Below, in pieces: positions 786 through 54,156 of a stretch of DNA of 64,000 nt (position 1 is its first letter; each line of letters opens with the position of its first letter). The DNA lies in the IMG/VR virus record IMGVR_UViG_3300037455_000245, positions 1 to 64,000 of that record. The stretch is one strand, 5' to 3'. The notes beneath the pieces were generated by a model. The model did not search any database, was not told where the DNA came from, and saw only the letters and a list, made by a program, of their open reading frames with translations. The translations under genes were made by a program, and so were the position numbers. The stretch comes from a virus (Duplodnaviria > Caudoviricetes).

Positions 786-939
786 AACTCGGATCTATTC
801 TATTACCGATTATGTTAGCAATGATGTTGGTAATGAAATCATTGCCTTCATCATGCTAAACATATCTCAGTATAAGTTTTAACAATTGGTTGTTCTCTCG
901 CGTAAGCTAGAGAAGTTCTTGTTCTTCAGCGTACGTCAT
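766..939 (-). CDS. small hypothetical protein, 57 aa, 3 TAG
   Basis: MTYAEEQELL*LTRENN...; ATG overlaps the portal TGA and the ORF fills the gap. Confidence 0.65.
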
Positions 940-3425
940 TTCTCACCAGATACTTTATTTCGAATAGCAGCTCTAGCTTTTACACGTTCACGTTCCAGAG
1001 CAGCGTCATCTTTCTGCTTCTGTAACTTCATTTCGTGTTGCATACGCTCCTTTTCGAGTTCAATCTTCTTGTCTTCTATCTCTTTCTTCTGACGTGCTTC
1101 ATAACGCTTAGTATACTCATCAGAAGCTATCTTACGTTGTTGTGTAGCATCCTTAGCTATCTCCATAGGATCAGGTATACCATTATTATTAGCATCCTTC
1201 TCTTCTGTACCACGATATGCGCTAATCTCAGCCACAGCAATCTTAGTCTGATTGTCAGCATCAATCTTATAACGCTCAAGCTCCATCTTAGCTTCTTCAA
1301 GCATAAGCTCTTGTTCACGAGCCTCGTTCTGCATCTGCTGCAGTTGTACTGCTTGCTGTTGCTCAGCTTCTTGCTGTTGACGCGTAAGGTCATCCTGACG
1401 TTGCTGCATCTCCAGAAGTTTCTGCTTGATGATGTTGAAGTTGTCGTTTGTAAGAACCTCAGCAGCCTCTAAGAGGCTGGCTCCATTCTGCATAGCCGGC
1501 TGAATAAGCTGCTGCAACTTCTAAATGTTCTCCATATCTTTAGAAGTGTCACTTACAAACACATCCATATCTTCATAGTAGAACTTATCTTGTATGTCTA
1601 TATAAGCTCGTTCACCATTATCGAAGATATAGCTAAGCTTCTTCTTACCTGTTTGTGCCCATACACCTTTAGCTGTATTTAACAGCATATTGAGCACATG
1701 GCGCTTACATTGGTTATGCGCCCAAAACAAAGGCTCTGTGATATGTGAAGATTGTACAACACTACGCTCCACATTACCTACTAGCTCGTTAGAACTAATA
1801 GCGCCTTCGCGCTGTTCTGTAATACCTGAAATAGTTCCAGCTAACTGCTCTATCTTATCCATCAGCTGAATATACTCAGCTATTACGTTCGACATAGTAA
1901 GGTCGAGAGCAGTAATCTAATTAAATGTAGCAGGCTTTCCGCCTTCTCTACCTGGTACGTTCCACCCTTCTTCATATGGGTTTATAAAGTTAACACCTAC
2001 AGAAGACAGATAATGCATCCATCTTTCTGGGGTTATGTTCATGGACTTTGGAATCTGTGTAATATCCATATTGACTACCTTACCCTTATCGCGGGCAATA
2101 GCCAACTCGAGTCTATACCACAGTACAATATACATATACTGCAACGGCTTCAGAATACTGACAAGAGAGCGTGGCCTACTGTTGGTAGCTGAGTAGACAC
2201 ATCCGCAGTATGGAAGCTTCTGAGAATTAGGGTTATCAATTGATACATGCTGGTACTCAAGAGGCTGAATGCCAAAATAAAGATCAGATCCTGCACGGTA
2301 TCCTTCCCAAACCTCTATAATCCAGTCCGGTTCAACGGATATCTCCTGTCCTGTCTTCTTATAAGACTCGTCCATAATTTCTACTTGAGCCTGTCCTGCT
2401 TCATCGAAGTATGTTACATAATATATTTTCTTAAATGACTTCCAGCAGCAGTGCCACACATTGATTGAATTCCTAGACTTTGTATCTAAGAACGGCTCAT
2501 CATATATCTTCATTTGAATGCCGCCGCCAAAGTTATCAATAGGGCTTCTATCACCCATGTCTCTAGTAACTCTGCCGGTAACCATTTCATTGAGTTTATT
2601 AAGATCTTTCTCTGTGAGCTTATCGTAATACCTATCATATACTTCTGCAATAGGCAATTTCATTTTACGACAGCACCACGAAGCGTCCTCTATAAACTCA
2701 AGATCCGGAGATCTATCAAAGTCGAATTCCTCTGGATTTACTCTCTCTACGTAAGGTTCACTGTTCTATATACCAACGTAGTATATCTCAACAGCAGCAA
2801 TAAGAGCATCTTTCCAGCCTTTAATGAACTCGTGATCAATACCTAGCTTCTCGCGCAGGTATGTGAGGGTGTGATATGCTGTGTTTTCTATAACGTCTTT
2901 ATAATCCTTTTGCATATACTTAGCTATAGCCTCAGGTGGCATTATCTCACCTGACTATAACTGTTGCTAGAACTGCTGAGCCTCCTCAGGACCCATCTAT
3001 GAAGTAATAGATGCCATAATATATTGAATAAGCATCTCCTTCTCTTTGTCCATCAATTCTGAAGCGGCTTCTTGCGATGTTCTCACTACCCTGAAGTTCA
3101 TCGGCCTCTTTGTCTCTTCACCTATAAGGAGGTCTACCTTAGGCCTAATTATATTGAAATCTTGAGGTGTAGCGGGAAATCCGTCCTCTACCTTAAACGG
3201 ATTAGTGACACGTTTAAAGTCTTTCTCATCAAAAATAGAATTATAAAGGTTATAGTAGGTTTGTATCTCTCCGTGCCTCGTCTGAGACAAACCGCCAGAC
3301 GAAACATTTCCCTCGCCGATAATATAGTTCACACAATCATGCTGCCATTGTTCATCCTTTTTCTTCAACGGGAGCTTCTGTTGAGGGAAATAACTATTAT
3401 ATAAGTTGTCTTCTACTCTAACCAT
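936..3425 (-). CDS. portal protein, 829 aa (TAG=Gln)
   Basis: Four listed ORF fragments share one frame, joined at TAGs 1521, 1917, 2766, 2955, 2967, 2997; crAss portal-like sequence (FPQQKLP...NIIRPKVDLLIGEE...LVGNVERSV) with coiled-coil C-terminus; next to terminase. Confidence 0.93.
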
Positions 3426-3427
3426 AT

Positions 3428-5491
3428 TTAAAAACTAAATGTCGGTATATCATCTTGTGGCCAACTGTCTTCAGTATCAAACCATTTTTGACTGAATAGA
3501 GGTAGCTCGAAGAGTTCAACCTGTTTGTTTTGTTCTTTTGCAGCGGACACTTTTACCTAGTATAACTCTTCCCTGTATATCATTACCATACACAAGGCTA
3601 TCAGACGGTCTACGTTTTTGATACCGTCATTTTCTATAAGTTCTTCTATTAAGGGTTCGCTGTATACTCTTTCTACATTAGGGTGTCCCGGTTCATACTC
3701 TTCTAATAACCATTCTAGTATCAAACCTTCTCCATATGCCCTAATTTGTTTTGTCATATGACAGCCTTTACGGCGCTGTACTTTACTATCTTTAAAAATC
3801 TCCGTAATTATCTTATCTGGCTGATCAGCAAGTAAGTAGTCGCAATGTTTATTTGTGAAGTAAGGATATATACCCTTACGTTCATTCTCAAACAACAGTC
3901 GGGCATTATAGAACGTAAGAAGTTTTCTCACATTCTCATAATACTCTTCCGCTGTGTCTGGGCGCCCACTATACTCTGCTACAATCACGTCGTTCCAAGC
4001 TTCTCCTGCTCTAACTCTTTTAAAAATAAACGTCGATCCTAGCGAGTTAGTGAACGACTCGTCATGATCATACGGGTCGCAACCGCCAATGTATAATCCG
4101 AAGGGCGGGTCGTTGACGGGGTATTCCCAGACGACTATTGATCCTTCAGGTTTGTCATCTTTCTTCAAATGATAAGTTGTTATATCGCCAGATTTCTTTT
4201 CTGTTGCTTTAACCATACCGTTACCATCCCAAGCTAAATCTACTATATGTTTCATATTCCTTAGTTTAGTATTAGTCCTTATACGGTTAAGCTAATCCAT
4301 TAATAGCTTCCTTGGGAATATGTTTTTACCTAATTCCAAACAAGCTTCTTGCGGTTTTATTGGTCTCTCAGATATAAATCTATCTATAGATTGCTAGCTA
4401 GCACCACCATCCTTTACTTTATTTCTCTATTGTATAGTATCTTCAATGGCTTTGTCTTTATAACTATTGCCATCTTTATCCATAAATCTATATTCACCAC
4501 TCTCATCAAAACCTTCCATGTTTAGATAGAAAGGAGAGAAATAACCACACTTGGTACTCTCTGCTTTGTCATCCCATATATTAGGGAAACTGAGTATATT
4601 AAATGATTCAGGATTGTAAAATAAAGTTTTAAGTCCGTCGAACTAACCACCTTCGGTACCACCAGTACCGAATGCAATCATAAGACCGAATGCTGTACCA
4701 TCGTCGTCTTCCATAGAAGGCTAACCTACACGCCAAGCTGTTTCTAGATTAGGGAACTTACCTCCCTCCTCAAATAGAACTAGCTTACCACGGATACCTC
4801 TTATACGTTCTGGATCATTCTTCAAAGTAATACCAGTAATAGCCGACATGTAACCTTGTTCAGTCTCTTTACCATATTCGTCTTTTACTTTAAATCCTGA
4901 TACACGTTCCATACGTGTTGAAGTAAGTCTTCGTTTGGACCAGTCTGTATTCTTATCTAAGAAGTCCATTATCTACCAAGACTTTGTCAGCAAACCATCG
5001 CCTATTAAGAACTTTTGTTCAGAAGCTATTGCGAAGTTTTTAGACTTCTCTATCAGTTCATAATTGCGTACAAGCATTGATGCACCTTTAAAACTGAAAC
5101 CTTTCTTACGTGCTTTAAGTACAGCTAAATGTTTTCCTTGTTGTTCTGCTTCTTCTACCGCCTAGAAGAAGTAGTAATCACCGTCCCAGAACGAAGGGAA
5201 ATCGAATACACGCTCTCTGCGAATTCTTTTATTGCCAAAGCGGTCAACGTATTCGACATCCTTTCGCGTCATTATGGGACTGTAATTTAAATAGAAATAA
5301 TGGTAGCCTGTAATAGAATCCCCATCATCTGCTACATACCCATTGAGACATCTTTCTGTTTCTCTGTCCCAATACGTATTATAATCGGTTGTACCTCTTG
5401 GGGCAAGAGTGTAGCACCCATTCTTCTAAAAGAATATGGCACTCTATCTAAATTTATCAGTATTAAATATTTTCTTATTAAAGTCTACCAT
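3428..5491 (-). CDS. terL: terminase large subunit, 687 aa (at least 10 TAG)
   Basis: Walker A-like LKARKKGFS, RGIRGKLVLFEEGG, FGTGG, nuclease GCDPYDHD and FENE motifs in one frame. Confidence 0.95.
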
Positions 5492-11457: not shown

Positions 11458-11546
11458 CGCGTGGTGAGGGAATCGAACCATCTACTACGGTGCTCTCGAA
11501 ACACTTTATGTGCCTGTCTCCCGCTTTACCATTAAGCTAACCACGC
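11458..11546 (-). tRNA. tRNA-like element with aberrant anticodon arm
   Basis: Acceptor GCGTGGT/ACCACGC, D arm TAGCTTAATGGTAAAGC, T loop GGTTCGATTCC; no canonical 7-nt anticodon loop. Confidence 0.6.
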
Positions 11547-11607: not shown

Positions 11608-12606
11608 TCATGTATTCTACGGTTGCTCTAGCCATTTCTACACTAAATCGTTTCCTGTATATTCAGAAAACCGTTTCAAAAGTACAGTACCGTTTGACAC
11701 TCTTGATGAAATCTACGGGTGGTTTAACCATGTATTATACTAAGAATCCTATACCCATATTGTATATATATTATTCGAAGCTAAACACCATGATGACCAA
11801 CCTGATACTAATGACAAATCTAAATTTGTGCAATACATAAATATATCGCAAGGTGTTGTAGTTTCACCAACTGCCAGACCACCATGTGGAAATCCATAAA
11901 CAGATGGAGCACATACTATTTTTTTTAACTTTGGGCAATTACCTCTTGGTAATGGTGCTTCCGTTCCAGTATAATTATTTGATGTAGATGTATCAACTAT
12001 TTCAAGATTTGGGTACGACCAATCGGAATTTGCTATATCTATACGGGTGGCCAGTTTTGGACAATATATTTCTACTAAATTATTCATTGTTTTAAATATA
12101 GGAATATAAAATCCACCCATCGTGCCATTCATCACATTAAGATCAACAATTTCCGGAAAATGCAATATTTGCTATAATGTTGAATACTATACAGCGTTTG
12201 TTGCATTAGACAAATTCTATCCAAAATAACTTGGATTTCCAAGATACCCGTATATACCAGCACCACTCTACCAATCGTCGATCAACATAGACCACTGTGC
12301 TTCAGTAATACCACTACCGTCTCCTGCTGGGCAGTTTGCAAAAAACCTTGCTGCATTAGGATCTACAAAAGATTTATAATAATTATCTGCAGTTATATAT
12401 AAAGGACCTTTATTGTTTGTACTATTAAACTATTGTTCAAGATAATTTTTATATTCCCTATATGTTCCAGAAACATGCAAATTTCCAATTAGATTACTAT
12501 TCTGATCTAGATTGCCACTGATTGCAAATTCGTACAACTTTGTTATAACGGAATTACTTACATACTAAGTAGAACCGTCGTCTTGTTCTATTCTTAAATG
12601 TGTCAT
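11608..12606 (-). CDS. BspA/LRR-like putative receptor-binding protein, 332 aa (TAG=Gln)
   Basis: MTHLRIEQ...; LRR-like units (NLVEIYCPKL, PNLEIVD, CPKLKKIV); ATG overlaps the upstream TGA. Confidence 0.75.
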
Positions 12607-15600
12607 ATTGATGTTATTATTCTGTCAAATACTGCAAATGATTTATTATTTGGTATATTTATAAGATCTAGTGAATCAAGATTATTATAACTATCGACAC
12701 GCACTCCGCTAGGCTATAATACAGTAGGATTAATCAAATGTATTTCAGTAGGACTACCGACCTCATATTTTGTCAATTTAGCGTTTTGTGGTACAAGTAC
12801 ACTGGTATTAGTACCGCTGGTATCCACTTCTAAAATATCTGAACACATTGTAAGATCTATTGTCCCACTTAAACCTGTACATCCTTGAGCATAAAGCTTC
12901 TTCAACTTAGTCATATTAGAGAAGTTGAATTGATTCTTATCAGTACCAGCAATAGATTCTGCTGTATTTTGCAATGATGTACATCCGTCTAAGATAATAC
13001 CTTCGCAGTTAATAAGATACTTAAACAAATAATCATTATTGTATGTGACAAGGTTTGGTAGCTCTGCACCAGATACACTAAAATCTATCTCATGCGTCAA
13101 TACCATAAGATCTATCTTATACAAACTATTCTTACCAATTGCAGATCCAAATTGAGCAATCCAAGCATTGTTGATTGGATTATACATTGTAGTCTTAGCA
13201 GAAGATACTATAATATCGAAATCTTCTTGTATAACTATTGTATTAGTCACAGTAACTTGATTTCCAGATGTGAATGTTACCGTAGCTTGTAACGTGTACA
13301 ATTTCATAGTACTAGGCATAGCAGCGTCTGCTGTAATCTTTATACCATCTACTGAAGTACTTTTTGCAATACTGATATAAGGATCTGTAAAGTTTTCAAG
13401 AGCTGTTGTACTTCCTCCTGTAGTATAACTTACAGAAACATTATCCTATAGTCGAGTAAGTGTATATTGTACATTTCTAATTACAGCACTGTATTCCTAA
13501 TTAGAATCAACAAAGAAACTAGCAGAAGCTCCACTTTGAGGGAACTCAATGTACCCTGGAACAGTCTTGAGCTAAATATTACTTTCAACCCTATTATTGA
13601 TAAACAAATCGGATGGGTAAGAAGCTGCTATTACATGAATAGTTGTACTATAAGGAACTCCAGATACAGATGTAAATATCTTTGCATCATAATCATGTCC
13701 AACAGAAGATTGTACAGATGTTATATATGCTATACCATCAATACTATCTGAAGCTTGCAATATACTTAATCCATTATATCTACCAGTACCATCGTTACTA
13801 TTAACAGGACCAACAGACCATTGATAATCAGTAGCGTTATCTTCTGCAAGGGAGAATTGGGTAGCGTTAAGAGAAGCAGTATTTCCTTCAACAAGTGTTA
13901 CGTTACCAAATTCATCAACTGTTACATCACCACCAATATTAATCTAGACATAGTTACGTTTGTGGTCAACTACTAGACCGGAAGAATTCTTAGTAAACAC
14001 AGTATCGCCAAACCAACTCTTAATCATATTAAGTTGAGCAGCAGTAAGATCATCGCCGGTATTTTTAAGTACTAAATAACCTTTAAGACTAGTTTGATTA
14101 CCTAATTGAGCGATATAACTAAGTTCCTAATATGTGAGAAGATTATTGTCACCGACTGTAGTATCAGACCAGTTAATCTTATCCATTATTAAGTTATATT
14201 GACTAAGATCAACATTTGCTGTCACAAGAGCGTTCAACCAGTTCTTTACAAATAATATAGACGACAATGTTGAACCTGTAGTACCAAGCAACGACACATT
14301 ATGAACTGTAGTAGGAATGCCGACTACCTCCTTAATCAACGCTGTATTATTTAGCAATTCTGGTTCGTTTTGAGCAATTTCTGCAATAGCATCGTAGTAA
14401 GCATCTGTACCATATACATAACCGCGTTGTTCAAGTATATCTGCAATGTTGTTTGCACTGGCGGTGGTATGATAGAATTTCATATCTTGCCACGTAGAGT
14501 TGTTCATCCAAATAGTATATACTGTATCTGGTAATTCAATGTGTGTAAAATCATTACCTGATTGGGAACTATAGAAATCAATAAGACCAGATCCCATAGC
14601 GTATACTTCATGAAGTTCAGAAATGTCATTATTGTATACAAGACCGTTCAAACTTGTCTGATTAATTTGTCCTCTAATATTCAGAGTTTGTAAATTCTAG
14701 AATACTCTTGGCTATCCTTGAATTTGACAGCCGAGTGAAGCAAGTACAGCAGTATAATCGGCATCTACCTGTTGGTCATTGTTTTCAGTTATTTCTACAC
14801 CAACATTAAGTTTTTTGAGTGGTGATCCAAGAACTTCAGAATATACACCATCAAGTGTTACACCATCCAAACCATGAGCAATTTGACTAAGATCGATCTC
14901 TTCCATAAAGTTAGCTCCATAGAACAATATCGGGTTCTTTGTAGCAGATCCGATCGACATACTAAACTCAAACGGATGAGTCTTATCTACTCTTTCTGTA
15001 GCCTGTAAGATTCCGTCTTTTGTGACAGACATATAAGTACTCTTGTTAGGAGTAATTACAACATCTTGATCTGCCCCAGCAGACACGTTAGCACGAATGT
15101 AAATATAGTGATTCTTATAATCTCCACAGAACCATTTAGCATCATAGTAATCCATAGAGTTACTCAACCACCAGTGACGATGCGTCATACGAGAACCTTG
15201 TAACCAACTAAGCCATGTTGGATCACCTTGACCAGATTCAATATATTTGAAATAGCCACTCTGATTGTACATAAGTTCACACCACTTAGCTGCGTAATTA
15301 TCATCCATCATGGATGTAATATTGTCATATGTAAGACCAGCGTTAAATAATGCATCAGCAACTTCGGGAACAATTACATTCATCCATTCATCCCATGCCT
15401 CAAGAGCATCAAACAACCAGTTTGATGTAACAATAACACCGTTATTATCAGCATTACGTCCAGAAATAGCATAAGTACCTTGTGAACCAGGAAGCTTTGT
15501 ATTACGATCAATTGGAGGATCAAACGCAATACCACCGTCGTTCTTATTACCAAGAGCAATATCCATATCCCACGGTTCGTAGTGCCAATGTACTCCATCA

Positions 15601-18600
15601 TAGGTTTTTAATTGAGCATTACGTTCCAATGAGTCTACAAGACCAAAACGCATTACAAAGATGTAATAAGCAGCCATCTTATACAAATCAAGATGCTATG
15701 CAGCTTCTGCTTCAAACTTAGACTGGTTATGATATGTACTTACTACCCAAGCGTGAAAATCAACAAACGGTTGAATCTTGCGAACATATTTAGAATTAGG
15801 ATTGAATTTATCAATACCACTCTTTGCATCATCTTCCGCAATATCGTCTTCATCAGGATAAATCATTTCAAACACCTGTTCCCAGTTATACATCCTAGTC
15901 ACCTTATGTGTAGCTTGATCTTCAATTGACACAATGTCGGTAAAATTATCATGTGTCATATAGGATGTAAATGGAACATTAGATCCAACAACTTCAACGC
16001 GAAGTACATTTTTATTATCCCAAACAAGATTCGAACTTGTATCATCATCTTTATGGGTGTTTGTAAGACAGAACGGATCTGCTGGAACAGCGTAAATACT
16101 ACGTTCGCCAAAACAGAAGTCAGACTTCTTGTCGTCCATCCAAACATACTGTCCTAAGAACGTACGTGTTTGTGAACCTTGTTCATCATAGTAGAACACT
16201 GCACATGGGAATGAGTCTGGAGAGACACGAATGTCGTATGGGAACTATTGGTTTGTTACATCATTCCACAACATGCTTGTTTTCCCAGCAACATTACTAT
16301 AACCTTCTGTCCAACCATCTTCACCAATGTTTGAATTGTTATGATGCACTACCTGGCTAGTAGAGAATAATTGAGGTTCTGTCCTAAGCTTATATTCTCC
16401 ATTTATTCTGGCGTTAAACCATGTTTGTTGGATAAGTCTTTCAAATCCTCCATTATGTACACCAGAAGAGTCTGCATAATTTGCTTGCAATACAAATTTA
16501 TTAGCTGGTATAGAAGGCTTCCCACTATCTGTAACAGATTTCATCACATATCTGTTCTTATTAAGAAGCATATCCGCCTGCTACGTACTTTCATATACAG
16601 GAATTGTACCACTCTTGGATTTGTTAAGCCAGAACTTCATTGATGTGATAGGATAGTTCAAGGTTGATTGACCGTGCTTCCTAATCTATACATCATTAAT
16701 TTTAAAGTTCTTACTTGAATCAGAAGGACAGAAGCGTTCGATAGTCACATCGGTTGTAGAAGAATCTTTATCAGATTGACCACTAAGTATGTTAGAAAGA
16801 TCACCAGATATAAGAATAGTATCAATCTTATTCTTACAAAGATCAAAACTTATATTACCGCCGCTGTCAAGAATATTATTACGATCTGCTATCTAAGCTT
16901 TATTCTCACTATCATATAGATAGTTATTATATGCTTGAGTATATGTAATAGCGTAATTATATACACGAATATTGTACACTCGTACTCCAGAAGCAGAATT
17001 ACCTATTACTATAGATCCTTGAGTTAAAAACGATTTACCAGACGCCGATGCAGCTCTTTCAAGAATGCCGTTATTTACAATATATGCAAGACCTGATTCA
17101 ACCGTTCTAAGATTTGATTCTTCAGGTACAGCGTTTATTATGAACGCAAGTTTAATCCTTTCATTAGACTTATAGTTAGTATGGACTACTTCATTATTAC
17201 TATTATCATACAGAGTAGCTTTATCCGGTGTAATTTCTACACGGGCCCCATATTGGTTACCTATAGTAATAATTTTATCAGTTGTTTCAGATACCTTTTC
17301 TGATTCAAATTCAATTTCAATAGTCTTACCTGTAGCAAAATCAAAGTTCTAGAATGGATGAGCATTTATTGTTGCACTAGACCCAACTCCAACTGTTCTA
17401 AAACTGTTATTATACCAACCGGAATTTGAGTTCCATTGGATGTTTGTAAATGTAGTAGTTACGTTACCAGATTCATCTACCCACTGATCTTTAGTAGCAC
17501 TATCATTGGTTTTACCATAAGCGGTCATTTTAGTTTCATAGAAACCAGTTTCGTTTACGGTAACTTTAGTATTACGTATTATATATATTGGAAACGAATC
17601 GATTAGAGTATTACCAAAATATGCTCCAATAAATGTTTCGTGGCCTTCTTCTGTATATATAGTAGGTATAAAAGATAACGTAGTTGCCTTTTCCTGACTA
17701 TTAGCTGTAATATTAGCCAGTGTTATTGGATTGTTATCATCCAGTCCGTCTAGCAGTTTCCATGTTACAGGAATAGATGTGTTAGTCTATAAGCTGTCAG
17801 TATAATAGCCCCACTGCAATGCCTACGCTTCGTATTGAGTAGCACCGAGCATAATATTGCTTAGTGGGAAATCACCACTGTCGAAAGAAGTTGCAATATT
17901 TATAAATTTGTTTGTACTACCAACTACACTTGAAGCAATTGTAAATGTATAATACAACAAGTTACTATTAACTGTTGTATTACCATCATTATATTTAGCT
18001 TCAGCCCAAATCTACAAGGTATGTGTACCTTCAGACAACTGAGCTTGAGCCATTTGTATTTCGTTTATTCTAGTAGGACCATCTTGAACTACATCTCTGG
18101 TATATTCTTTACCAGTACCACCGTTATCTATTCTGAAGTGAATCTTAGCTGTTCCTGATGTATTGTTACGTTCGAATATGTATGGTATTTGAATAGGTGT
18201 AGATGAGAATTGCTTCTCATAAAATTTGAATGTACTGGTAAGATTAATCTAAAGTAATACGATAGTAAACGTTTTAGTGTTACGAGCACCGGTTGTAATA
18301 CCTTTACATTCAATAGTTACAACGTTTTCTCCAGGTTTTAAGTAATCGTATATACTAAAATCGGGGTTAGCGTCAGATTTATTATACCATCTTGTAAATG
18401 TAGTAGATGAACCGGTGGATGTATTAGATATAGTATATGTAGCAGATAAGCTATCCGAAGAATCTCCTTCGTCATTATATATATTCCAAGAGAACGCAAT
18501 TCTGCTCCCAGTACTAGTCGAATCTCCGTATCTAATAAATTTATTATTAAAGCCATCGCTATTGATAGCCGTTAATTCTAATTTATAGTCGCTGGGACGT

Positions 18601-18863
18601 ACAAAATTAAACAACTCAAGATCTTGATTATCTGAAGGATTCTCTTTCCATATAGCATACGCATCTTCACTAGAGAACATCCTATATCTATTGTTCGCCG
18701 TATCTTCGAACATATAAAATGGATCTTTTAGTTTACGTTGTAAAAGATCCCTAATGGACCCTCCAGATACCTAAAGACCACCAGTTACTGCAGCACCAGT
18801 TAATGTATTTTTTCCTGATACCCAGTCTACAAATTCGTTAATTTTACCATTATATAAATCCAT
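12603..18863 (-). CDS. giant virion/tail protein, 2086 aa, CotH-kinase-like domain and C-terminal LRRs (TAG=Gln)
   Basis: Seven listed fragments share one frame; LVDSLERN...WDMDIALG; LRRs (FSNMTKLKKLYAQGCTGL). Confidence 0.85.
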
Positions 18864-18874
18864 ATGTTATCTGT

Positions 18875-19054
18875 TTAATCGGTCCAACATTGTTCGTCCA
18901 CCCAAGGATATTCATCTATCCAATATCCGTTAGAATAGCAAGAAATTATCTATCTTATCTTAGTCCAAACTAATCTATGTCCATTATATATTGCAGCAAT
19001 TGCTCTTGATCCTCTATAAACATCCGATATACTCCTATTGTTTATATATATCAT
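18875..19054 (-). CDS. small tail-associated protein, 59 aa (1 TAG)
   Basis: MIYINNRSISDVYRGSRAIAAIYNGHRLVW...WIDEYPW. Confidence 0.7.
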
Positions 19055-19074
19055 AAGTTATTGCGTTTATAATT

Positions 19075-20472
19075 TTAAGAATTAGAACTATAAGTTATAC
19101 TAGTTATATATTCAGTAGCATCACTTAAATTATTACTAGGAAGACCGTCAACTATTCCGCGTGTAATCATTCTATCCATCCAAATTGCTCCGTCTGGTCT
19201 AAACTATACGGCAATAGCCTTTTGAACACCGTGATCGTTATCTTGTAAATTACTATTACTTTGGAAATGGAGGTTATAATAATAAATACCGTTATCTTGT
19301 CCAGAAGCTCCTGCGCCAACTAATGTATTTGGATATAGTGTAATTTCAGTAGGATCTATGGTTGGGTCTTCTGATACATACATTATTTTTATACTAGTGA
19401 TACTTTCTAATAAACCCTATGGGTCATTAGGAGCATATGAAGAATCAAATACAATATATCTACGCTTATCGTCAATTTGATCATTTAATAAGTAACTAAT
19501 ATCAAACGGTCCTTCGTGATTAGTTTTAGCCCATGCTACATATGAAATGATATCTTTCCATGTGCATGTGGGATCATTAGAATCTATAAAATCATAAAAG
19601 TCATCACTTTGATTCTTCTCGTATTTGTAACGGGTAGTTGAATCTGACCCATCATATTTATCAGATGCTATCTTATTACGAGTAGAAAGCTTTATTGACC
19701 CCATCTTTTTAAACCTGTATTCTCCAGTGTAAAGGGATGTTTTTTCTGAATTAAACGTGCCAAATTCAAGACCGTCTCCGCCACCATGTTCAAACTTGAT
19801 TTTGTTTTCATGGTTATCAGAATCTTTACCTTTTGGTTGAAGAGCTATGCCGCCATGATCCTCACAACGAAGATCGATTGCCTGTGCACGAACTTTAAGA
19901 TAACCTCTTGTATTTGCAGCCTTGTTTACTGTAATGTTCATTACATCAGAGTCTTCTTGCTTATCTTTTGATGTAAGAACAATATCTCCAGCATTCAATT
20001 GAAGTTTTGCAGCGACCTCGTCTGTCTTTGTAGGATCAGAAGCCTTTGGAACTTCTGTCATAATTTTTACAGATACTTCATCGTTCTTGCTGGTTCCACG
20101 TTTATGCCCCCAGAATTCAATATCGTCTCCTGGTTTAAGTGCTATATTACCACCTTTTCTATTTGCAAGCCCTGGTGTATTTTTACCTTCTCCAGTACCT
20201 GCAGCAGGACGCGGTTCAATGTTGATATTATTATCTCCAGAAATACCTACATTCGTTCCTTTATCACCCTTAGACGTGAGTTCGCCGACCAATACATTTC
20301 CAACTTTAACAAAAGTCTTATTTGAATCTAACTGGTCTACTTCTGTAGAGACAACGCCTCCGCTTCCAGCACCACCAGAACCGAGCTCGTTTACATCAGC
20401 GGCGAGGGAGTTCCATTCTTCTGCGCTAAGTGCGCTACCTGTTTGTTTATTTGTTGCGTGATTTAAATTCAT
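19075..20472 (-). CDS. putative tail/spike protein, 465 aa (TAG=Gln)
   Basis: 351-aa ORF extends through TAG 19417 to TAA 19075. Confidence 0.75.
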
Positions 20473-20474
20473 AA

Positions 20475-22403
20475 TTATGATAATATTACAGGGAATTCAT
20501 CTCCGAATGCCCAAGTTTCACTTTGTTCTGATTCTTCATATATAAAATAAATAGTATTGGCGCTGTACGACGACAAGTTGTCATACTATTCTTGTTCTAA
20601 GAATAGGTGTATATAACCACCATTTCCGCTATTATTTCCGCTTCCGCCACCGTTTCCACCGGATGGTTGTGTATCATCTGGTATATCTATTGGAGGCAGT
20701 TCTGCAGATTCCCAATCAGCTTCATTTGTAGGTTCGTATACGTCTGTTTTTAGTACACATTTATTTTTTATAAGTTTTTTAAGATTACTTACTGTTGTTT
20801 GCAATTGTGTATATGTAACAAACGTATCGTCAGTAGGTAACATTTGATAAGTTTGTTCTACAATCTGTTTATATAAATCAAACTCATCTGATGTTACATA
20901 CGATCCCTTCGGTTGATATGTTTTTGCAGCAGTTGTCTTTTTTAAATACGGCTACAAATTTACTTCCGGAGCTGTATCTCCTATTAATATCCATTCAGAG
21001 CCGTTCCAACGATGCTGTGTATAAGTATAACTATTGTCCTGATTTTGTGTTTGCAGAATGTATAATTTATTCTAACTAGGATTGACAGGAAGTTGGTCTA
21101 CTATTACAAAGACGTTTGTATCTATTGTAGAAGATATAACATTATCAGTTATAGATATTCCATCACCGGCAGTAAGTACATCTTGCTTTAATGACAATGC
21201 TGCATCAAATGTATCGTTTACCACATACGATTCCAAATGCAAGTTATTTACCTTACTTGTTACATATGTTTTAGTTGCATATGAACTCAAAGTTGTATTG
21301 TCTACTTTATCATTTAAAGCTGATGTTATTACTTTATTCTATACAGGATTCTCTGATGCTGTACTTAGCACACGGTCCACTATAATATTTGTATAGCCTG
21401 TACCAGAATCTATCGGAGTCGTTTCACCTTCTACGTCGGATTCAACGTTTCCATTCTTTGGTGTATATACAGATGTTTTCTTTACATATCTACTATCACA
21501 CCAACTCTTTGTAACAAATTCGTCATTTTCAGGTTTTAGTTGTAGATATTCATCTATCCACTATTTCGTATAATAGTTGTTGAACGTTGGTACAATATAT
21601 GTATCGCAATAGTCCTTAACGTCTCCTATTTTTATATAAGAACCCTTTGGTTGGTAATAATCATCGGCATCATCCTTTGTAAGATAACCGGTTATCGTTA
21701 CTTCTGGTATAATCTAATCTGTAGAATTCCACTGTCCGTTCTTATATACGTATTGTATATATCTGTATGTACCATCACCATTACTTACCTATACAAGATA
21801 TATTTTGTTTTCGCTAGGATTTTCTGGAGGAAATTCGTCTTGTGTTAATATAACATATACTTCGGTATCCAAAGTAGAACTGATAGTATTGTTCCTTATT
21901 TCAATACCTCTTCCAGCTTTTAATTTATCCTGTTTACCTACTATATCCTCAGGACGCAATACTTCATTTTTATCAGCCTTATATCCAAGAGCAGTATATA
22001 TAGCTTTATTCTCAACTGGATTTGTAGACGTAGAATCCAGTTGATCATCCATGTCTAAAGTCCAGTTGATAGTATTGTTGTTAATAGAAATATATTTACC
22101 TCGTTTTACAGGAGGTTGTATATTTACAGAGTAACTATTACCATCAGAATCGGTAAGTGTTATAGAATTATTACTAAGTTCGATAGTAAATACATTGGAT
22201 CCATATCCATCCCCAAACACCAGCGTGCCTTCTTCCAGATTAGACTTGCTTACATTGCATAAGTACTCTTTATCGTGAGTCCATATGCAGGTATGTGATT
22301 CATCTTGAATAAATACAATTGCGTCTTTTGAAATCTAATTATCGTTCAAATCTCTAATGAACGAGTTGTAGTGTTTGTAATTTAAAAATCTACTGTTAAT
22401 CAT
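20475..22403 (-). CDS. tail fibre-like protein with repeated KQDxLxAGxGI units, 642 aa (TAG=Gln)
   Basis: Fragments share one frame; repeats LDSTSTNPVENK / VLSTASENPV*NK and KQDKLKAGRGI / KQDVLTAGDGI. Confidence 0.8.
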
Positions 22404-39311: not shown

Positions 39312-39718
39312 GTGCCTTGTGCCAGTACCTGATAGACTCAAGATCTGTATAATAAACTTAGTGCGTATAGTTTCTATAAGGTGAGAGTTGTACTGGCCTG
39401 AATTGACAGGTCCGACGAGTGCCGGAGTATGGAGAGAGAAACTGTTAGCGGAAGTGTTAAAATAGCAATATGATGATCATATGGCACAGCTATTGTGATT
39501 TTTAACTATATGGAAACTAATAAGCCTCTCTCAGTTACGAGTGCCAGTTCGGCAGGTAAGCAGCGAACCAACGCTGTTAAAATATATTGGTCCATTGATC
39601 AAATCACTATCTTGTATGTGCCTTGTGCCGGGGAATTTCTTTGAGTCAAGAGACAAAAAGACCCTGCAAGATATATCAAAAATGTGAACTATATACTATG
39701 TGTGTGCCTTGTGCCGGA
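39312..39718 (+). repeat. array of GTGCC(TTGTGCC) motifs
   Basis: Units at about 39312, 39419, 39541, 39618, 39704. Confidence 0.7.
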
Positions 39719-39849
39719 GCATGGTCAATGTAGGATAATTTAAGGACGAAAATAAGGCAAACTAAGATGTTTGAATCTTTGAATGGACCAGCTATCCACA
39801 AGAAGCCTAAAAATAGCTCAGGGAGCCTGAAAATAGCCTTAAATCGAAT

Positions 39850-40177
39850 GTTTTAGCTGATCCCTAAAGCGTTCAACATAGAAATCTTAGCGGTCTGAGG
39901 TATTCTGTTCGGACACGGGTTCGAATCCCGTCGGGTCCACTACAGGAGGTGTCTGGATTTTACGTTTCGACAAGTTAGTCAGACTCAATTCAGGAAACTG
40001 CCGGCATTATCTGAGCCTCCTTTTCTTATATGGGCTCGATAGGCTTTAGACGGGCAGATGAAGTAAAGGCATTAACGCTTCGATATAAATTTAAACGACA
40101 ATATAAACATTGTCGACTATACGGGCCTCAAGGAGGCAGCGTAAAGTCCGTGTACAGGCTACGACAGTGCCTGTGGA
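39850..40177 (+). ncRNA. ssrA: circularly permuted two-piece tmRNA (5' boundary approximate)
   Basis: Acceptor piece GGAC-ACGGG-TTCGAAT-CCCGT-CGGGTCC-A (39911-39939) precedes coding piece GGGCTCGATAGGCTTTAGACGGG (40032); G3:U70; tag DNINIVDYTGLKEAA* at 40097-40144. Confidence 0.88.
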
Positions 40178-40248
40178 TGGATCATGGTGTAATGGTAACA
40201 CTACAGACTTTGGTTCTGTCATTTTGGGTTCGAATCCCGATGATCCAA
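40178..40248 (+). tRNA. tRNA-Gln(TTG)
   Basis: Canonical cloverleaf, ACAGA-CTTTGGT-TCTGT. Confidence 0.93.
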
Positions 40249-40269
40249 CTACAACTAAAATTAATTGAC

Positions 40270-41160
40270 ATGTCAAAAAAATACGATTTTAATAACAATT
40301 AGGAGGAAATAGCTGAGCCTAGTATTGTTAGAATAAACAAAGACTAGGTATCTATTATTCACGCATCTAGTACAGACGTCACAGAAATACCAGATGATGA
40401 AGAGTTGATTATATAGATAGGAAATATAGAATCCTACAATCCATCAACTCTTAGTCCTGAACCAGAACCAGAGAACATTCCGAATAATAATGGAGGCAAT
40501 AATAGTTCACAGGGAAATGGGTCAGAAAACGGAGGAGGATCTGAAAGTGGATCCAGTACAGTTCCAATTATAAATGGAGATACTGTAACCATTGGAAATA
40601 AAACATACGGAACTGTACATGTAAATATCCAGAACGACACAGGAAGTGAAATACGATTGTACGGAGAAATGTTAATATGTGCATCTAGAACCCCATCAAA
40701 TTGGAATAACGCCATTCAAATTAGCGCTGACTTTATTAGACCACACAACCCAGACTGGTACAGTTATCCAAATACAGTTAGTATAGGAATAGGTTAGTCT
40801 TGTTCAATAAATTGTTTAGTAGAAACTAAATATCTTGACGGTACATATTATTTAATGGAAGGACAAAGTGCCAGTGACTACGTAACACCTGTGTGGTTAT
40901 ATAGTGTATACTATAATACACGAGACAATACAGTAAACTGGGGACAAGCGTTGTATCATATAGAAAAGAATGAGATTCGCTAGTAGTTATCTAATGGAGC
41001 AACAATATACGTTACAGCAGATAGATTAAAATTAAGCGATGAAAGTCCAAGAGTAACTGATACAACGGTTGCTATAAGTGGCACAACTACAGAAGTTAAC
41101 AATTTACCTAATACCATACATTACGTTGTATTACCTATTGGAGAAAAAACATTATTATGA
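40270..41160 (+). CDS. hypothetical beta-rich protein, 296 aa, 6 TAG
   Basis: Open from ATG 40270 to TGA 41160 only if TAG is sense; absent from the ORF track. Confidence 0.8.
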
Positions 41161-41927: not shown

Positions 41928-42001
41928 GGACTTTTAGCTCAGTTGGTTAGAGCAACAGACTCATAATCTGGAGGTCGCAGGTTCAAGCCCTGCATGGTCC
42001 A
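41928..42001 (+). tRNA. tRNA with CAT anticodon (Ile2-like or Met)
   Basis: Canonical cloverleaf, CAGA-CTCATAA-TCTG. Confidence 0.9.
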
Positions 42002-42020
42002 CAAACAAATCATAATCAAT

Positions 42021-42949: not shown

Positions 42950-43144
42950 GGCAGTCCCACCCATCCCAGGTATTTATACGCTGCATATGGGTTCTAAAAG
43001 AGGTATGGTTTGATCCAAACTGCCCGCAACACAGCGGATGTCTGTTATAGGAGTGACACCTTAATAACCATCGTCTTGGTAAAATTCCGTCCAAGCACTA
43101 ACGGTATGTCCCTCCCAGGAACTATCTACTCAATTTTGTTTGAT

Positions 43145-43705
43145 ATGGCTAAGAATCCGAAGATTACAGAAGAAGAAATAGCCCTTATCAAAAGCGCTCA
43201 AGCAGGAGAAATCTCTGCTTATAATAAACTTTATGAGAAGTACAAAAACTTCACCACAAACCTTTTGTTTAGATACATTAAGGATTTTGATGAATCCAAA
43301 GAGATTAATAATATCGTTTGGCTTAAAGTTTATAAGAAACTCTCGAAATTCAAAGACTATACTTCATTTGGAGGATGGTTGAGAATACTTACAAATCGAA
43401 CTGCAATAGATTATCTACGCAAGTTAAATGATTTGAACTATGTCTCTGACACTAATGCTCGCTTTGTATCCGAGGATGACAGAGAAGATGTTTATAATGA
43501 TAGCATCTCTGATGATATTACTTACAAACAGTTAGTTGAAACATTTAAGCAATTCCCAGAAGACGCTCGTAAAGTCTTTGAATTGTATTACGGAGAAGGT
43601 CTTACTGTCAGTGAGATTCATAAGGTTACGAACATTCCGGAAGGTACGATTAAATCGCATCTCTCACGAAAACGTAACTTGTTAAAAAACAAATTCAAAC
43701 TGTAA
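43145..43705 (+). CDS. ECF-type RNA polymerase sigma factor
   Basis: AYNKLYEKY, FGGWLRILTNRTAIDYLR, region-4 HTH IPEGTIKSHLSR. Confidence 0.92.
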   Translation: MAKNPKITEEEIALIKSAQAGEISAYNKLYEKYKNFTTNLLFRYIKDFDESKEINNIVWLKVYKKLSKFKDYTSFGGWLRILTNRTAIDYLRKLNDLNYVSDTNARFVSEDDREDVYNDSISDDITYKQLVETFKQFPEDARKVFELYYGEGLTVSEIHKVTNIPEGTIKSHLSRKRNLLKNKFKL

Positions 43706-52281: not shown

Positions 52282-54156
52282 ATGATTATTAAGAACAAAC
52301 TAGTCGTTGTTTACGACATAGAAGTATTTAGTAACTGCTTCCATTGCTGCTGTAAAGATACAGAAAGCGGAGACATCATAAAGTTTGAAATAAGTGAAAG
52401 AATCAATCAGCTCGAAGAGCTGGTTGATTTCTTTTACTATAATTCGCAGGACAGAATGTTCTGTGGGTATAATAACAAACATTATGATGATGTTATCATA
52501 AATTATATGATAGACTATCATTACAAAATGGCGCAACTGCCAGTTAGTAAGGTATGTCGTTCGCTATTCAATTTATCGCAGCTAATCGTCGATGATGAAA
52601 TCGACGGAGTATCAACATTCAAACGATGGAAGTACGCTAATTACTTCTATTCAATGGATTTATTGACTATGATGTTTAGTCAGAAGTTACGTGTCGGCTT
52701 AAAAACGATGCAGGTAACGATGCACTATAAAAATGTGCGGGAGTATGACGGCGACTTCAACAAACCAATAGCCGTCGAAGATATTGACGATATGATATCG
52801 TATAATATCAATGATGTAGAGTCTACTACTCAGTTGTTAAACCAGCTGAAAGGGCAAATAGACTTACGTCTCTTCATAGAAGAGGAACACGGAATTGATT
52901 GCTTGTCAATGGATTCTGTTAAGATGGCAGAGACCTTCCTGTTGGAGAAATACTCCGAGAGGTCAGGTATTCCCAAAAATGTAATAAAGGAAATGAGATC
53001 TCCCATGGATTATATTCCGTTAAGAGATGTTATTCTGCCATTTATATCCTACAAAAACCCAAAGTTACAGAGTCTCTTAGAAGAAATGAAGGAACAGGTA
53101 GTTTATTCTAAGGAACGAAAAGGCTACGAGAAGGAGTTCGTCCTCTCGAACGTGGTGTATTCTGTGGGAGTGGGAGGTATACATACCAAACACGACCCAA
53201 AGATATTCCTCCCAGCCGATGACGAGTTTATAGGGCACGCAGATGTGGCGTCGATGTACCCGTCTTTATTGATAGAATATCAGTTTGGACCTCGTCACTT
53301 GGGGAAACTATTTTGCGAGTTATTTGCCCAACTGAAAGCCGAAAGGCTAGAAGCAAAACATACAGGTCAGAAGATTAAGAACTTGTTCCTAAAGATTGTG
53401 CTAAACTCTCCTACTGGTAAAATGCAGCAGGAGGTATCGTGGATGTACGATCCGTTTAACGTTTTTAAGATAAGAATAAATGGTCAGTTAATCCTTCTTT
53501 TGCTCGTAGACAGGCTTTTAGAGCTTGGCTGTGAAATTATACAGTGCAACACCGACGGTGTCGTCTACAGGGCTAAAAAAGGCCTTAAATCGGCTATTTC
53601 AGATGCTATTACCGAAGTTGAAAAACTTACGCGTCTAGAATTCGAATCTGATGAGTATGAAGCCTTCTATCAGTACGCTATCAATGACTACTTTGGTGTC
53701 TTGAAAGGCGGTGAGATAGAAGAAAAAGGTATGTTTATTACGAAGCGAGATGACAGGAGACTGGGCAAAGGTCTCGCACCTGTGGTTATACCAAAGGCAG
53801 TAATTGCATATTTCACAGAAGGAATTCCTATTGAACAATATATAAAATCTGATGGAGACATCAGAGACTTCTTAATGTCCCAACAAGTCGATAAGAAGTT
53901 TACTGTGCTGCACGGGGAAAATCGAGTACAGCGCATTAATAGGTTTTACGCAAGTACAAATGGTGAATATCTGTTTAAACAAAAAGATGGAGAAAACCCA
54001 GAGAACATGTTAACAAAGTCAGGAGTAACAATCTTGAACGAGTTATATGATACGACTGTAGAAGGTCGAAAGATCAACTATAGGTACTATATCAGCGAAG
54101 CCAAGAAGATTGTTTCTGACTTCACTGAACAACAATTAGAACTATTCAATCTATGA
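52282..54156 (+). CDS. polB: DNA polymerase family B
   Basis: Exo YDIE and GYNNKHYDD; pol DVASMYPS, KIVLNS, NTDG. Confidence 0.95.
   Translation: MIIKNKLVVVYDIEVFSNCFHCCCKDTESGDIIKFEISERINQLEELVDFFYYNSQDRMFCGYNNKHYDDVIINYMIDYHYKMAQLPVSKVCRSLFNLSQLIVDDEIDGVSTFKRWKYANYFYSMDLLTMMFSQKLRVGLKTMQVTMHYKNVREYDGDFNKPIAVEDIDDMISYNINDVESTTQLLNQLKGQIDLRLFIEEEHGIDCLSMDSVKMAETFLLEKYSERSGIPKNVIKEMRSPMDYIPLRDVILPFISYKNPKLQSLLEEMKEQVVYSKERKGYEKEFVLSNVVYSVGVGGIHTKHDPKIFLPADDEFIGHADVASMYPSLLIEYQFGPRHLGKLFCELFAQLKAERLEAKHTGQKIKNLFLKIVLNSPTGKMQQEVSWMYDPFNVFKIRINGQLILLLLVDRLLELGCEIIQCNTDGVVYRAKKGLKSAISDAITEVEKLTRLEFESDEYEAFYQYAINDYFGVLKGGEIEEKGMFITKRDDRRLGKGLAPVVIPKAVIAYFTEGIPIEQYIKSDGDIRDFLMSQQVDKKFTVLHGENRVQRINRFYASTNGEYLFKQKDGENPENMLTKSGVTILNELYDTTVEGRKINYRYYISEAKKIVSDFTEQQLELFNL

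What the first reader, a model, noticed from the sequence alone, without database searches (positions are those of the whole stretch)
39850..40177. Phage-encoded, circularly permuted two-piece tmRNA
Seen: the tmRNA 3' module (P2 strand TCTGTTCG, GGAC, T arm, CGGGTCC-A at 39904-39939) lies upstream of the 5' module (GGGCTCG at 40032, CGGGCAGA). The two pair with the G3:U70 alanine determinant. The roughly 90-nt intervening segment is closed by GGAGG/CCTCC. A resume context TAAAC-GAC opens tag DNINIVDYTGLKEAA*, and the coding piece abuts tRNA-Gln. Known: permuted tmRNAs occur in alpha- and some beta-proteobacteria, some cyanobacteria and some mitochondria; Bacteroidota tmRNA is normally one-piece. 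Inference: an independent permutation in a phage that rescues ribosomes stalled during amber recoding, with RNase P cutting at tRNA-Gln defining the coding-piece end. No SmpB is visible in this window.
Basis: partly seen in the sequence, partly recalled or inferred. Interest (0 to 1): 0.92.

Follow-up and report, generated by a model that had tools for sequence, protein, structure and literature searches.

The report
Two-piece mini tmRNA of crAss-like phage
This amber-recoded gut or rumen crAss-like phage carries a genuine, back-to-front and very small gene for tmRNA, the RNA that frees stalled ribosomes; public records already label the gene family, but I found no paper describing its stripped-down build, its likely origin from Bacteroidota hosts, or the tRNA-like element that ends it.

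Summary
ARAGORN calls a permuted tmRNA at 39850-40235 with the tag DNINIVDYTGLKEAA. Across 20 distinct homologues, 97.6% of cells in 29 proposed pairs are base-paired, 19 pairs show compensatory changes, and G3:U70 is invariant.

Two more helices hold by covariation: P2c, and a hairpin inside the tag. The tag frame is under peptide-level selection. There is no room for pseudoknot 1.

Every homologue has a tRNA or a reduced tRNA-like element 0-12 nt after the coding piece. Here it is tRNA-Gln(UUG). This supports RNase P setting the 3' end.

The TLD loop, the Gly GGC resume codon and the unencoded CCA match Bacteroidales one-piece tmRNAs. They do not match the alpha or beta two-piece forms sampled (no cyanobacterial two-piece gene fell in my sample). 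A separate permutation event is therefore likely, about 0.65.

The phage is TAG->Gln recoded in late genes and encodes no SmpB. The proposed link to recoding is untested: tmRNA was not detected in 3-4 of 19 near-complete recoded relatives.

The family is already annotated as tmRNA in RefSeq crAss-like genomes. A 2022 supplementary table lists it as 'Permuted'. This scan has also met it repeatedly on other genomes. The Rfam score (49.4 bits, cut-off 47) is not decisive on its own.

The parts
39846..39874 (+). Upstream hairpin (GAATGTTTTAG / CTAAAGCGTTC) with loop CTGATCC. It may be the 5' portion of the precursor or of the acceptor piece; its role is unknown.
   Evidence: Predicted fold. The stem varies but the loop CTGATC is kept in a subset of homologues (alignment). 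It is absent from others. Covariation was not counted.
39889..39939 (+). Acceptor module: P2c 5' strand AGCG 39889-39892; P2b 5' strand GTCT 39893-39896; loop GAGGTAT; P2a 5' strand 39904-39911; GAC; T arm 39915-39931 (loop TTCGAAT); acceptor 3' strand 39932-39938; discriminator A 39939. CCA is not encoded (CTA follows).
   Evidence: ARAGORN, Rfam, covariation. The trailer is C followed by non-CA in 20/20 homologues.
39940..40031 (+). Intervening segment of 92 nt, predicted to be removed. It forms its own hairpin closed by GGAGG/CCTCC.
   Evidence: Fold at -19.3 kcal/mol. It is the least conserved part of the gene in both length and sequence among homologues.
40032..40177 (+). Coding module: acceptor 5' strand GGGCTCG 40032-40038; D-loop analogue ATAGGCTTTAGA 40039-40050; P2a 3' strand 40051-40058; loop TGAAGTAA; P2b 3' strand AGGC 40067-40070; loop ATTAA; P2c 3' strand CGCT 40076-40079; A/U-rich leader 40080-40096; tag ORF; helix around the stop codon 40121-40151 (predicted only); terminal hairpin 40154-40174 with conserved loop.
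   Evidence: Covariation. Alignment A2. Cofold for the helix around the stop codon.
40097..40144 (+). Tag reading frame: resume codon GAC, peptide DNINIVDYTGLKEAA, stop TAA. A 5-bp hairpin (40098-40102 with 40109-40113) lies inside codons 1-6.
   Evidence: ARAGORN. Minimum changes at codon positions 1/2/3 are 4/3/15, with D-Y-T invariant. The hairpin is 98% paired, against 21-60% when slid. Stops are TAA or TGA, never TAG, in 20 homologues.
40178..40249 (+). tRNA-Gln (anticodon UUG), 3 nt after the terminal hairpin. Its RNase P site would create the 3' end of the coding piece.
   Evidence: ARAGORN. Rfam tRNA at 61.8 bits. A tRNA or tRNA-like element occupies this position in every homologue.

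Best explanation
This is a functional, circularly permuted tmRNA gene of an Oafivirinae-type crAss-like phage (the closest named relatives are Suoliviridae).

Proposed pathway, all steps inferred except the sequence features. One precursor is transcribed rightward through the acceptor module, a disposable 92-nt spacer, the coding module and tRNA-Gln. The acceptor stem forms between 39932-39938 and 40032-40038. Host RNase P cuts 5' of G40032 and 5' of tRNA-Gln at 40178, which makes both ends of a coding piece of about 146 nt. Host tRNA 3'-end enzymes trim after A39939 and add CCA, which is not encoded.

The two pieces are held together by P1, P2a, P2b and P2c. The molecule totals about 200 nt and has no recognisable pseudoknots.

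Host AlaRS would charge it through G3:U70 and A73, and host SmpB would deliver it to ribosomes with an empty A site. Translation would resume at GAC 40097, add (A)DNINIVDYTGLKEAA, and stop at TAA.

The gene most likely arose by permutation and shrinkage of a Bacteroidota-type one-piece tmRNA, separately from the alpha, beta and cyanobacterial two-piece lineages.

Why the phage keeps it is not shown. The most likely reason is extra or retargeted ribosome rescue during infection.
For: Detection: ARAGORN permuted call and Rfam RF04321.

Structure: P1, T arm, P2a, P2b and the terminal hairpin are 97.6% paired, with 19 of 29 pairs covarying and G3:U70 in 20/20. P2c is 96.7% paired with all five pairs covarying.

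Tag: selection acts on the peptide (4/3/15 changes by codon position), and conserved tag families were found in about 30 phage genomes.

Spacer: it is unconserved.

3' element: a tRNA or tRNA-like element with an acceptor stem and T arm follows in all homologues.

SmpB: none in the complete genome.

Host-like characters: GGC resume in 30/30 Bacteroidales against 17/20 phage genes. A UUUGAC-type loop in 28/30 Bacteroidales, with no UUCGAC in 20/20 phage genes. CCA is unencoded in 28/30 Bacteroidales and 20/20 phage genes. The tag class ...DYTKLAA resembles the host ...NYALAA.

Other lineages: the alpha and beta two-piece and cyanobacterial forms differ in these characters. True alpha and beta two-piece genes score 118-163 bits on RF04321, against 35-58 bits for most phage genes (two ARAGORN- or pattern-supported relatives score only 15-22).
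Against: There is no expression, processing, charging or tagging data. The phage is uncultured.

The Rfam score is barely above the cut-off, and the same model gives 30-48 bits on ordinary one-piece tmRNAs.

PK1, which matters in E. coli tmRNA, is missing.

The 4:69 pair is C:G in all phage genes but G:C in every bacterial tmRNA sampled, so recognition by host SmpB or AlaRS is assumed, not shown.

Tags ending EAA or VA may not be degradation signals.

The origin argument rests on a few characters in short sequences. No formal phylogeny was made, and no cyanobacterial two-piece gene fell in my sample.
Confidence: 0.8

Rival explanations
1. The gene is genuine, but it was acquired by horizontal transfer from one of the three known two-piece lineages and then diverged. 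On this view it was not permuted independently from a Bacteroidota-type tmRNA.
For: Phage two-piece tmRNAs acquired from alphaproteobacterial or cyanobacterial hosts are documented (PMC9004378). For cr273_1 the best clan match was a partial beta_tmRNA hit at 37.2 bits. The P2a-loop-P2b layout and a GAAG-AAAG motif resemble a beta two-piece gene (L160).
Against: Resume codon, D-loop analogue and unencoded CCA all match Bacteroidales. They differ from the alpha and beta two-piece genes and the cyanobacterial one-piece tmRNAs sampled. In the window the best clan hit is the standard model RF00023, not alpha, beta or cyano. RF04321 scores are about 100 bits below true members.
Confidence: 0.2
2. 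The RNA works mainly as a decoy that soaks up host SmpB and blocks host trans-translation, like the TLD-only molecule of mycobacteriophage DS6A. On this view it is not a working rescuer.
For: A TLD-only phage tmRNA that inhibits E. coli tmRNA is on record (PMC4131195 and PMC11915505). The phage RNA lacks pseudoknots, and its tag ends are non-canonical in two of the three classes.
Against: The tag frame is conserved at peptide level with synonymous changes, and the stop codon, resume context and surrounding helices are kept. A pure decoy would not need these.
Confidence: 0.07
3. The call is an artefact: neighbouring tRNA-like relics, or a tmRNA 3' fragment serving as an attachment site, misread by ARAGORN and Rfam as a permuted tmRNA.
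For: RF04321 gives near-threshold hits on non-permuted genes. tmRNA genes are common integration sites, and phages often carry fragments of them (PMC9004378).
Against: There is inter-module covariation in four helices, G3:U70 is invariant, and the tag ORF is conserved across diverged genomes. The 3' end differs from host tmRNA (GTCC against CTCC), so it could not rebuild a host gene. The crAss-type pattern was found in 0 of 401 Bacteroidota genomes.
Confidence: 0.02

Closest known systems
tmRNA genes annotated in RefSeq crAss-like phages of Suoliviridae/Oafivirinae: cr273_1 NC_055904, cr272_1 NC_055903, cr131_1 NC_055902, cr7_1 NC_055895, cr124_1 NC_055899
   Same: Same gene family. The module order is the same and the same helices covary with the window's copy. 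They share the ..VDYT.. tag core and the same neighbourhood (small ORFs, tRNA-Met, a sigma-factor-like gene). ARAGORN calls all of them permuted.
   Different: DNA identity is about 72-74% over parts only. The tags differ (GNINVVDYTGLQEAA, GNYNVVDYTHVA, [DG]NVNNIVDYTNVA). The downstream element is a reduced tRNA-like structure or another tRNA instead of tRNA-Gln. The records label the gene only as tmRNA and do not state the permuted form.
Two-piece (circularly permuted) tmRNAs of Alphaproteobacteria, a betaproteobacterial lineage and some cyanobacteria (Rfam RF01849, RF01850, RF01851; merged model RF04321), and their phage-borne copies such as Methylophilales phage Melnitz
   Same: The gene order is permuted: acceptor 3' module, spacer, then 5' module and tag. 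The tRNA-like domain is assembled from two strands. G3:U70 and a tag ORF are present, and the RNA depends on host SmpB.
   Different: The phage form scores only 35-58 bits (two relatives 15-22) against 118-163 bits for true members. It has a Gly/Asp resume codon instead of Ala, no UUCGAC, unencoded CCA and a C4:G69 pair. It lacks the alpha-type T loop and has no PK1. It ends at a tRNA or tRNA-like element.
One-piece tmRNA (RF00023) of Bacteroidales and other Bacteroidota, 370-414 nt, tags GENNYALAA, GNDYNYALAA and variants
   Same: GGC resume codon. A TAAAC|GGC or TAACT|GGC leader. A GG[UA]UUUGAC loop. A73 followed by C with CCA unencoded. Tag motifs G-N/D-x-N and ..Y-x-(K)-L-A-A.
   Different: The host gene is collinear and about twice as long, consistent with the usual pseudoknot region (its structure was not examined here). 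It has a G4:C69 pair. 40 of 41 Bacteroidales genomes carry it, and none of 401 Bacteroidota genomes carries the phage arrangement.

Membership tests
tmRNA (ssrA) | tRNA-like domain: a 7-bp acceptor stem formed by the 5' and 3' strands, a T arm with a GGUUCGAAU-type loop, and no anticodon arm | tested here: met
   P1 is 99.3% paired and the T stem 100% paired over 20 sequences, both with compensatory changes. The T loop is TTCGAAT.
tmRNA (ssrA) | Alanine identity: G3:U70 wobble and discriminator A73 | tested here: met
   The U:G pair at columns 66/183 is present in 20/20. The discriminator is A in 20/20. Charging itself was not tested.
tmRNA (ssrA) | Long helix P2 joining the TLD to the mRNA-like part | tested here: met
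   P2a (8 bp, all pairs covarying) and P2b (4 bp). P2c (4-5 bp, all pairs covarying).
tmRNA (ssrA) | Short tag ORF with a resume codon after an A/U-rich leader and an in-frame stop, conserved as a peptide | tested here: met
   ARAGORN tags in all relatives. Changes by codon position are 4/3/15. The resume codon is GGC or GAC, and the stop is TAA or TGA.
tmRNA (ssrA) | Pseudoknots PK1-PK4 (typical of the family, but not universal) | tested here: not met
   Only 26 nt lie between P2b and the resume codon, and they are taken up by the ATTAA loop, the P2c strand and a single-stranded leader. Only hairpins follow the tag. One candidate loop-leader pairing was checked by eye and is not conserved.
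tmRNA (ssrA) | Partner protein SmpB, alanylation, and trans-translation activity | not testable with these tools
   No SmpB gene in the phage. Use of host SmpB is inferred.
Permuted / two-piece tmRNA gene form | The acceptor 3' module lies upstream of the 5' module and tag, separated by an intervening segment | tested here: met
   Read directly from the sequence. ARAGORN tmRNA*. RF04321 aligns end to end.
Permuted / two-piece tmRNA gene form | The mature RNA consists of two base-paired pieces after the spacer is excised | not testable with these tools
   Only indirect support: the spacer is unconserved, and tRNA-type processing sites flank both modules.
Alpha, beta or cyanobacterial two-piece lineages (RF01849, RF01850, RF01851) | Lineage-specific sequence and structure: Ala resume with an ANDN-type tag (ANNIV in the cyanobacterial one-piece genes sampled; no cyanobacterial two-piece gene was sampled), a UUCGAC or GGAUCGAC loop, encoded CCA, the alpha T loop, and a high model score | tested here: not met
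   None of these states is present in the phage genes. No cyanobacterial two-piece gene was in my sample.

The most novel reading that the evidence does not exclude
The crAss-like phage tmRNA is a fourth, independent invention of the two-piece form. On this reading it was made from a Bacteroidota one-piece tmRNA and reduced to a pseudoknot-free core, with its 3' end set by a tRNA-like RNase P signal. It would be kept because TAG->Gln recoding late in infection drives ribosomes through TAG stops to mRNA ends, which raises the need for rescue. Its phage-specific tags (never ending in a TAG stop) would give the rescued products a fate different from host-tagged ones.
Probability: 0.2. Interest if true: 0.8.

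Novelty: new variant of a known kind. Interest (0 to 1): 0.5.

Why it matters
Two-piece tmRNA has been treated as a feature of three bacterial lineages and some organelles. A phage-borne lineage that appears to derive from Bacteroidota would be a further independent permutation event.

At about 200 nt with no pseudoknots, it is also a natural minimal tmRNA that retains a tag frame conserved at peptide level. That bears on which parts of tmRNA are needed for trans-translation.

The recurrent tRNA or tRNA-like element at the 3' end suggests a simple way of defining the end of a non-tRNA transcript with RNase P.

The gene sits in phages that reassign TAG to Gln and carry no canonical suppressor tRNA. 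It therefore offers a handle on how translation is managed during recoded infection.

Tried and rejected
1. Pseudoknot-like pairing between the leader (GCGCTTTG) and the terminal hairpin loop (CAAAGTG). It fits some sequences, but by eye on A2 it fails in cr273_1 and cr131_1, so I dropped it.

2. Pairing of the conserved GAGGTA loop with the hairpin loop TACCT. There is no covariation, so I dropped it.

3. The upstream repeat GTGCCTTGTGCC (three copies at 39312, 39618 and 39704) as a conserved promoter or operator. It is absent from all 216 loci held at that point, the relatives' tmRNA loci among them, so it is local to this genome.

4. The sigma-70 promoter scan gave nothing convincing on the + strand upstream. 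Bacteroidota and phage promoters are not covered by that tool.

5. My first IMG/VR pattern had a miscounted spacer and found nothing. The corrected pattern found 20 loci.

6. ORF coverage of the 10-14-kb flanks of relatives was uninformative about recoding, because the tmRNA neighbourhood is unrecoded. I replaced it with counts of in-frame stops in the terminase gene.

7. The MFE cofold of the two pieces did not recover the tRNA-like fold. This is expected for tRNA-like domains, so I relied on covariation instead.

8. The odd tRNA-like gene at 11458-11546 as the missing amber suppressor. It contains no CTA.

9. The Sharkady and Williams 2004 paper (PMC516066) is not held. The supplements of the 2025 tmRNA database paper that are held do not list phage entries. 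I therefore could not confirm whether these genes are in that database.

Full report
**What is there.** The window is the first 64 kb of a complete 105,228-bp IMG/VR virus record. ARAGORN calls a permuted tmRNA at 39850-40235 with tag DNINIVDYTGLKEAA*. It also calls tRNA-Gln(UUG) at 40178-40249 and tRNA-Met at 41928-42002. Rfam's merged permuted-tmRNA model RF04321 aligns end to end at 39880-40144 with 49.4 bits against a cut-off of 47. The start at 39850 is only ARAGORN's fixed offset from the T arm.

**How much the detectors prove.** RF04321 alone is weak evidence. In Burkholderiales and Cyanobacteriota it gives 30-48-bit full-length matches that lie on ordinary one-piece tmRNAs. Genuine alpha and beta two-piece genes score 118-163 bits. 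The case therefore rests on comparative structure.

**Relatives.** BLAST against GenBank phages found partial matches under features annotated 'transfer-messenger RNA, SsrA' in cr273_1, cr272_1 and cr131_1 (Suoliviridae, Oafivirinae). cr7_1 and cr124_1 carry the same feature. ARAGORN calls all of them permuted. A pattern scan of IMG/VR gave 20 loci, 17 of them with ARAGORN permuted calls. Later sampling added more.

The tags fall into three classes sharing a ..[VAN]DYT.. core:
- ...DYTGL[QK]EAA
- ...DYT[HNC]VA
- ...DYTKLAA

**Structure.** I worked on an alignment of 21 sequences, 20 of them distinct (A2).
- The proposed P2b, P2a, T stem, acceptor stem P1 and terminal hairpin are 97.6% paired, against 33-52% when partners are slid. 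19 of 29 pairs have changes on both sides. G3:U70 is present in all 20.
- A further inter-piece helix, P2c (39889-39892 with 40076-40079), is 96.7% paired with all five pairs covarying.
- A 5-bp hairpin inside tag codons 1-6 (40098-40102 with 40109-40113) is 98% paired, with two covarying pairs.
- The 26 nt between P2b and the resume codon are taken up by an ATTAA loop, the P2c strand and an A/U-rich leader, so a PK1 cannot form there. Only hairpins follow the tag.
- The mature RNA would be about 54 nt plus about 146 nt, roughly half the 370-414 nt of Bacteroidales tmRNAs.
- The 92-nt spacer forms its own hairpin and is the least conserved segment.

**Tag.** Over eight codons common to all homologues, the minimum number of changes by codon position is 4, 3 and 15. 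D, Y and T are invariant but use synonymous codons. Resume codons are GGC (17) or GAC (3). Stops are TAA (16) or TGA (4), never TAG.

**3' end.** In every homologue a tRNA or a reduced tRNA-like element starts 0-12 nt after the terminal hairpin. The full tRNAs are Gln-UUG here and Met-CAU in three others. The reduced elements are 43-66 nt and keep a 5-7-bp acceptor stem and a T arm. Their acceptor and T stems differ between genomes while staying paired.

Maturation of a real tRNA requires RNase P cleavage at its 5' end, and that cleavage necessarily makes the 3' end of the upstream RNA. An acceptor/T-arm minihelix is the known minimal substrate of bacterial RNase P (established knowledge). It remains an inference.

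**Origin.**
- An unbiased sample of 30 Bacteroidales one-piece tmRNAs has a GGC resume codon in 30/30, a GG[TA]TTTGAC-type loop in 28/30, and A73 followed by C with CCA encoded in only 2/30.
- The phage genes share all three states.
- Beta two-piece and one-piece genes, cyanobacterial one-piece genes and alpha two-piece genes have Ala resume codons and UUCGAC or GGAUCGAC loops. Beta and alpha genes encode CCA, and alpha genes have a special T loop.
- The ...DYTKLAA tag class resembles the host ...NYALAA.
- The phage-specific state is C4:G69, in 20/20.
- None of 401 sampled Bacteroidota genomes has the phage arrangement.

I read this as favouring a separate permutation from a Bacteroidota-type ancestor (about 0.65). 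The limits are that the sequences are short, no tree was made, and no cyanobacterial two-piece gene was in my sample. One beta one-piece sequence in the tally (L162, from G071) comes from a genome flagged unpublished. Nothing depends on it.

**Recoding.**
- Reading TAG as sense raises coverage by ORFs of at least 150 codons from 0.55 to 0.84. It reaches about 1.0 at 65-95 kb.
- Portal has 6 in-frame TAG and large terminase has 10. DNA polymerase has none.
- In a terminase alignment, TAG columns face Gln in 35 of 71 aligned residues.
- The tmRNA lies in the unrecoded block. A TAG-containing ORF starts at 40270, just after tRNA-Gln.
- Only three tRNA-like genes exist in the genome, and none has a CUA anticodon.
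- All 10 tmRNA-bearing relatives tested, and all 19 near-complete clade members, have TAG-only in-frame stops in the terminase gene.
- tmRNA was found in 15-16 of those 19. It was not detected in G672, G684 and G688, and is doubtful in G686.

The co-occurrence is thus a clade trait, and the gene is dispensable. The proposed role in recoding is neither supported nor excluded.

**What is known.**
- Phage-borne two-piece tmRNAs are documented, mainly in marine phages (PMC9004378).
- Table S1 of that paper lists 13 crAss-like genomes as 'Permuted' without comment.
- The 2025 tmRNA database paper counts 79 phage sequences, and built RF04321 from alpha, beta and cyanobacterial seeds only (PMC11915505).
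- Full-text searches for tmRNA with crAss-like or Crassvirales found no paper that describes these genes.
- Earlier notes of this scan report the same family on many other genomes, with similar readings. I treated them as leads and tested the origin, the missing PK1 and the tRNA-like end piece myself.

**Verdict.** This is a real, selected, two-piece mini-tmRNA gene. Its existence is already catalogued. Its architecture and probable separate origin are not described in the literature I could search.

Noticed in passing
whole genome G000; window 936-3425 (-), 3428-5491 (-), 12603-18863 (-), 52282-54156 (+): Late genes are TAG->Gln recoded: portal has 6 TAG, large terminase 10, and a 2086-aa ORF 19. 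DNA polymerase has none. Yet the complete genome has no tRNA with a CUA anticodon. The only tRNA genes are Met-CAU and Gln-UUG, plus one odd tRNA-like gene. How TAG is decoded is therefore open.
   Followed up: partly
window 11458-11546 (-): An 89-nt tRNA-like gene (Rfam tRNA, 37.8 bits) with good acceptor, D and T arms but 35 nt where the 17-nt anticodon arm should be. ARAGORN does not call it. It contains no CTA.
   Followed up: partly
window 40270-41160 (+): An ORF of 296 codons with six in-frame TAG starts 21 nt after tRNA-Gln, so the tmRNA-tRNA unit borders recoded genes. It has no PHROG match.
   Followed up: partly
window 39312-39323, 39618-39629, 39704-39715: Three exact copies of GTGCCTTGTGCC lie in the 550-nt gap upstream of the tmRNA, two of them within 24-nt repeats. 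The motif is absent from every relative's locus.
   Followed up: yes
W02 (cr131_1) 17336-20672; W03 (cr7_1) 99353-102714; G668 14703-18041: In these relatives the large terminase gene matches in two parts about 1.3 kb apart. This suggests an insertion in the gene (intron, intein or homing-endonuclease gene).
   Followed up: no
window 43010-43705 (+): A sigma-factor-like protein (phrog_1740, E 6.6e-22) lies downstream of the tmRNA. Its counterpart is annotated 'RNA polymerase sigma-W factor' in the same position in RefSeq relatives.
   Followed up: partly
L160-L183 (bacterial loci): Rfam RF04321 (tmRNA_permuted) gives full-length matches of 30-48 bits, three of them just over its cut-off of 47, on ordinary one-piece tmRNAs of Burkholderiales and Cyanobacteriota. 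Near-threshold hits of this model do not show permutation.
   Followed up: yes
L306, L308, L310 (IMG/VR relatives): A third tag class ends in ...DYTKLAA, close to the canonical host ...YALAA ending. The other two classes end in EAA or VA. The tags may therefore differ in whether they are degradation signals.
   Followed up: no
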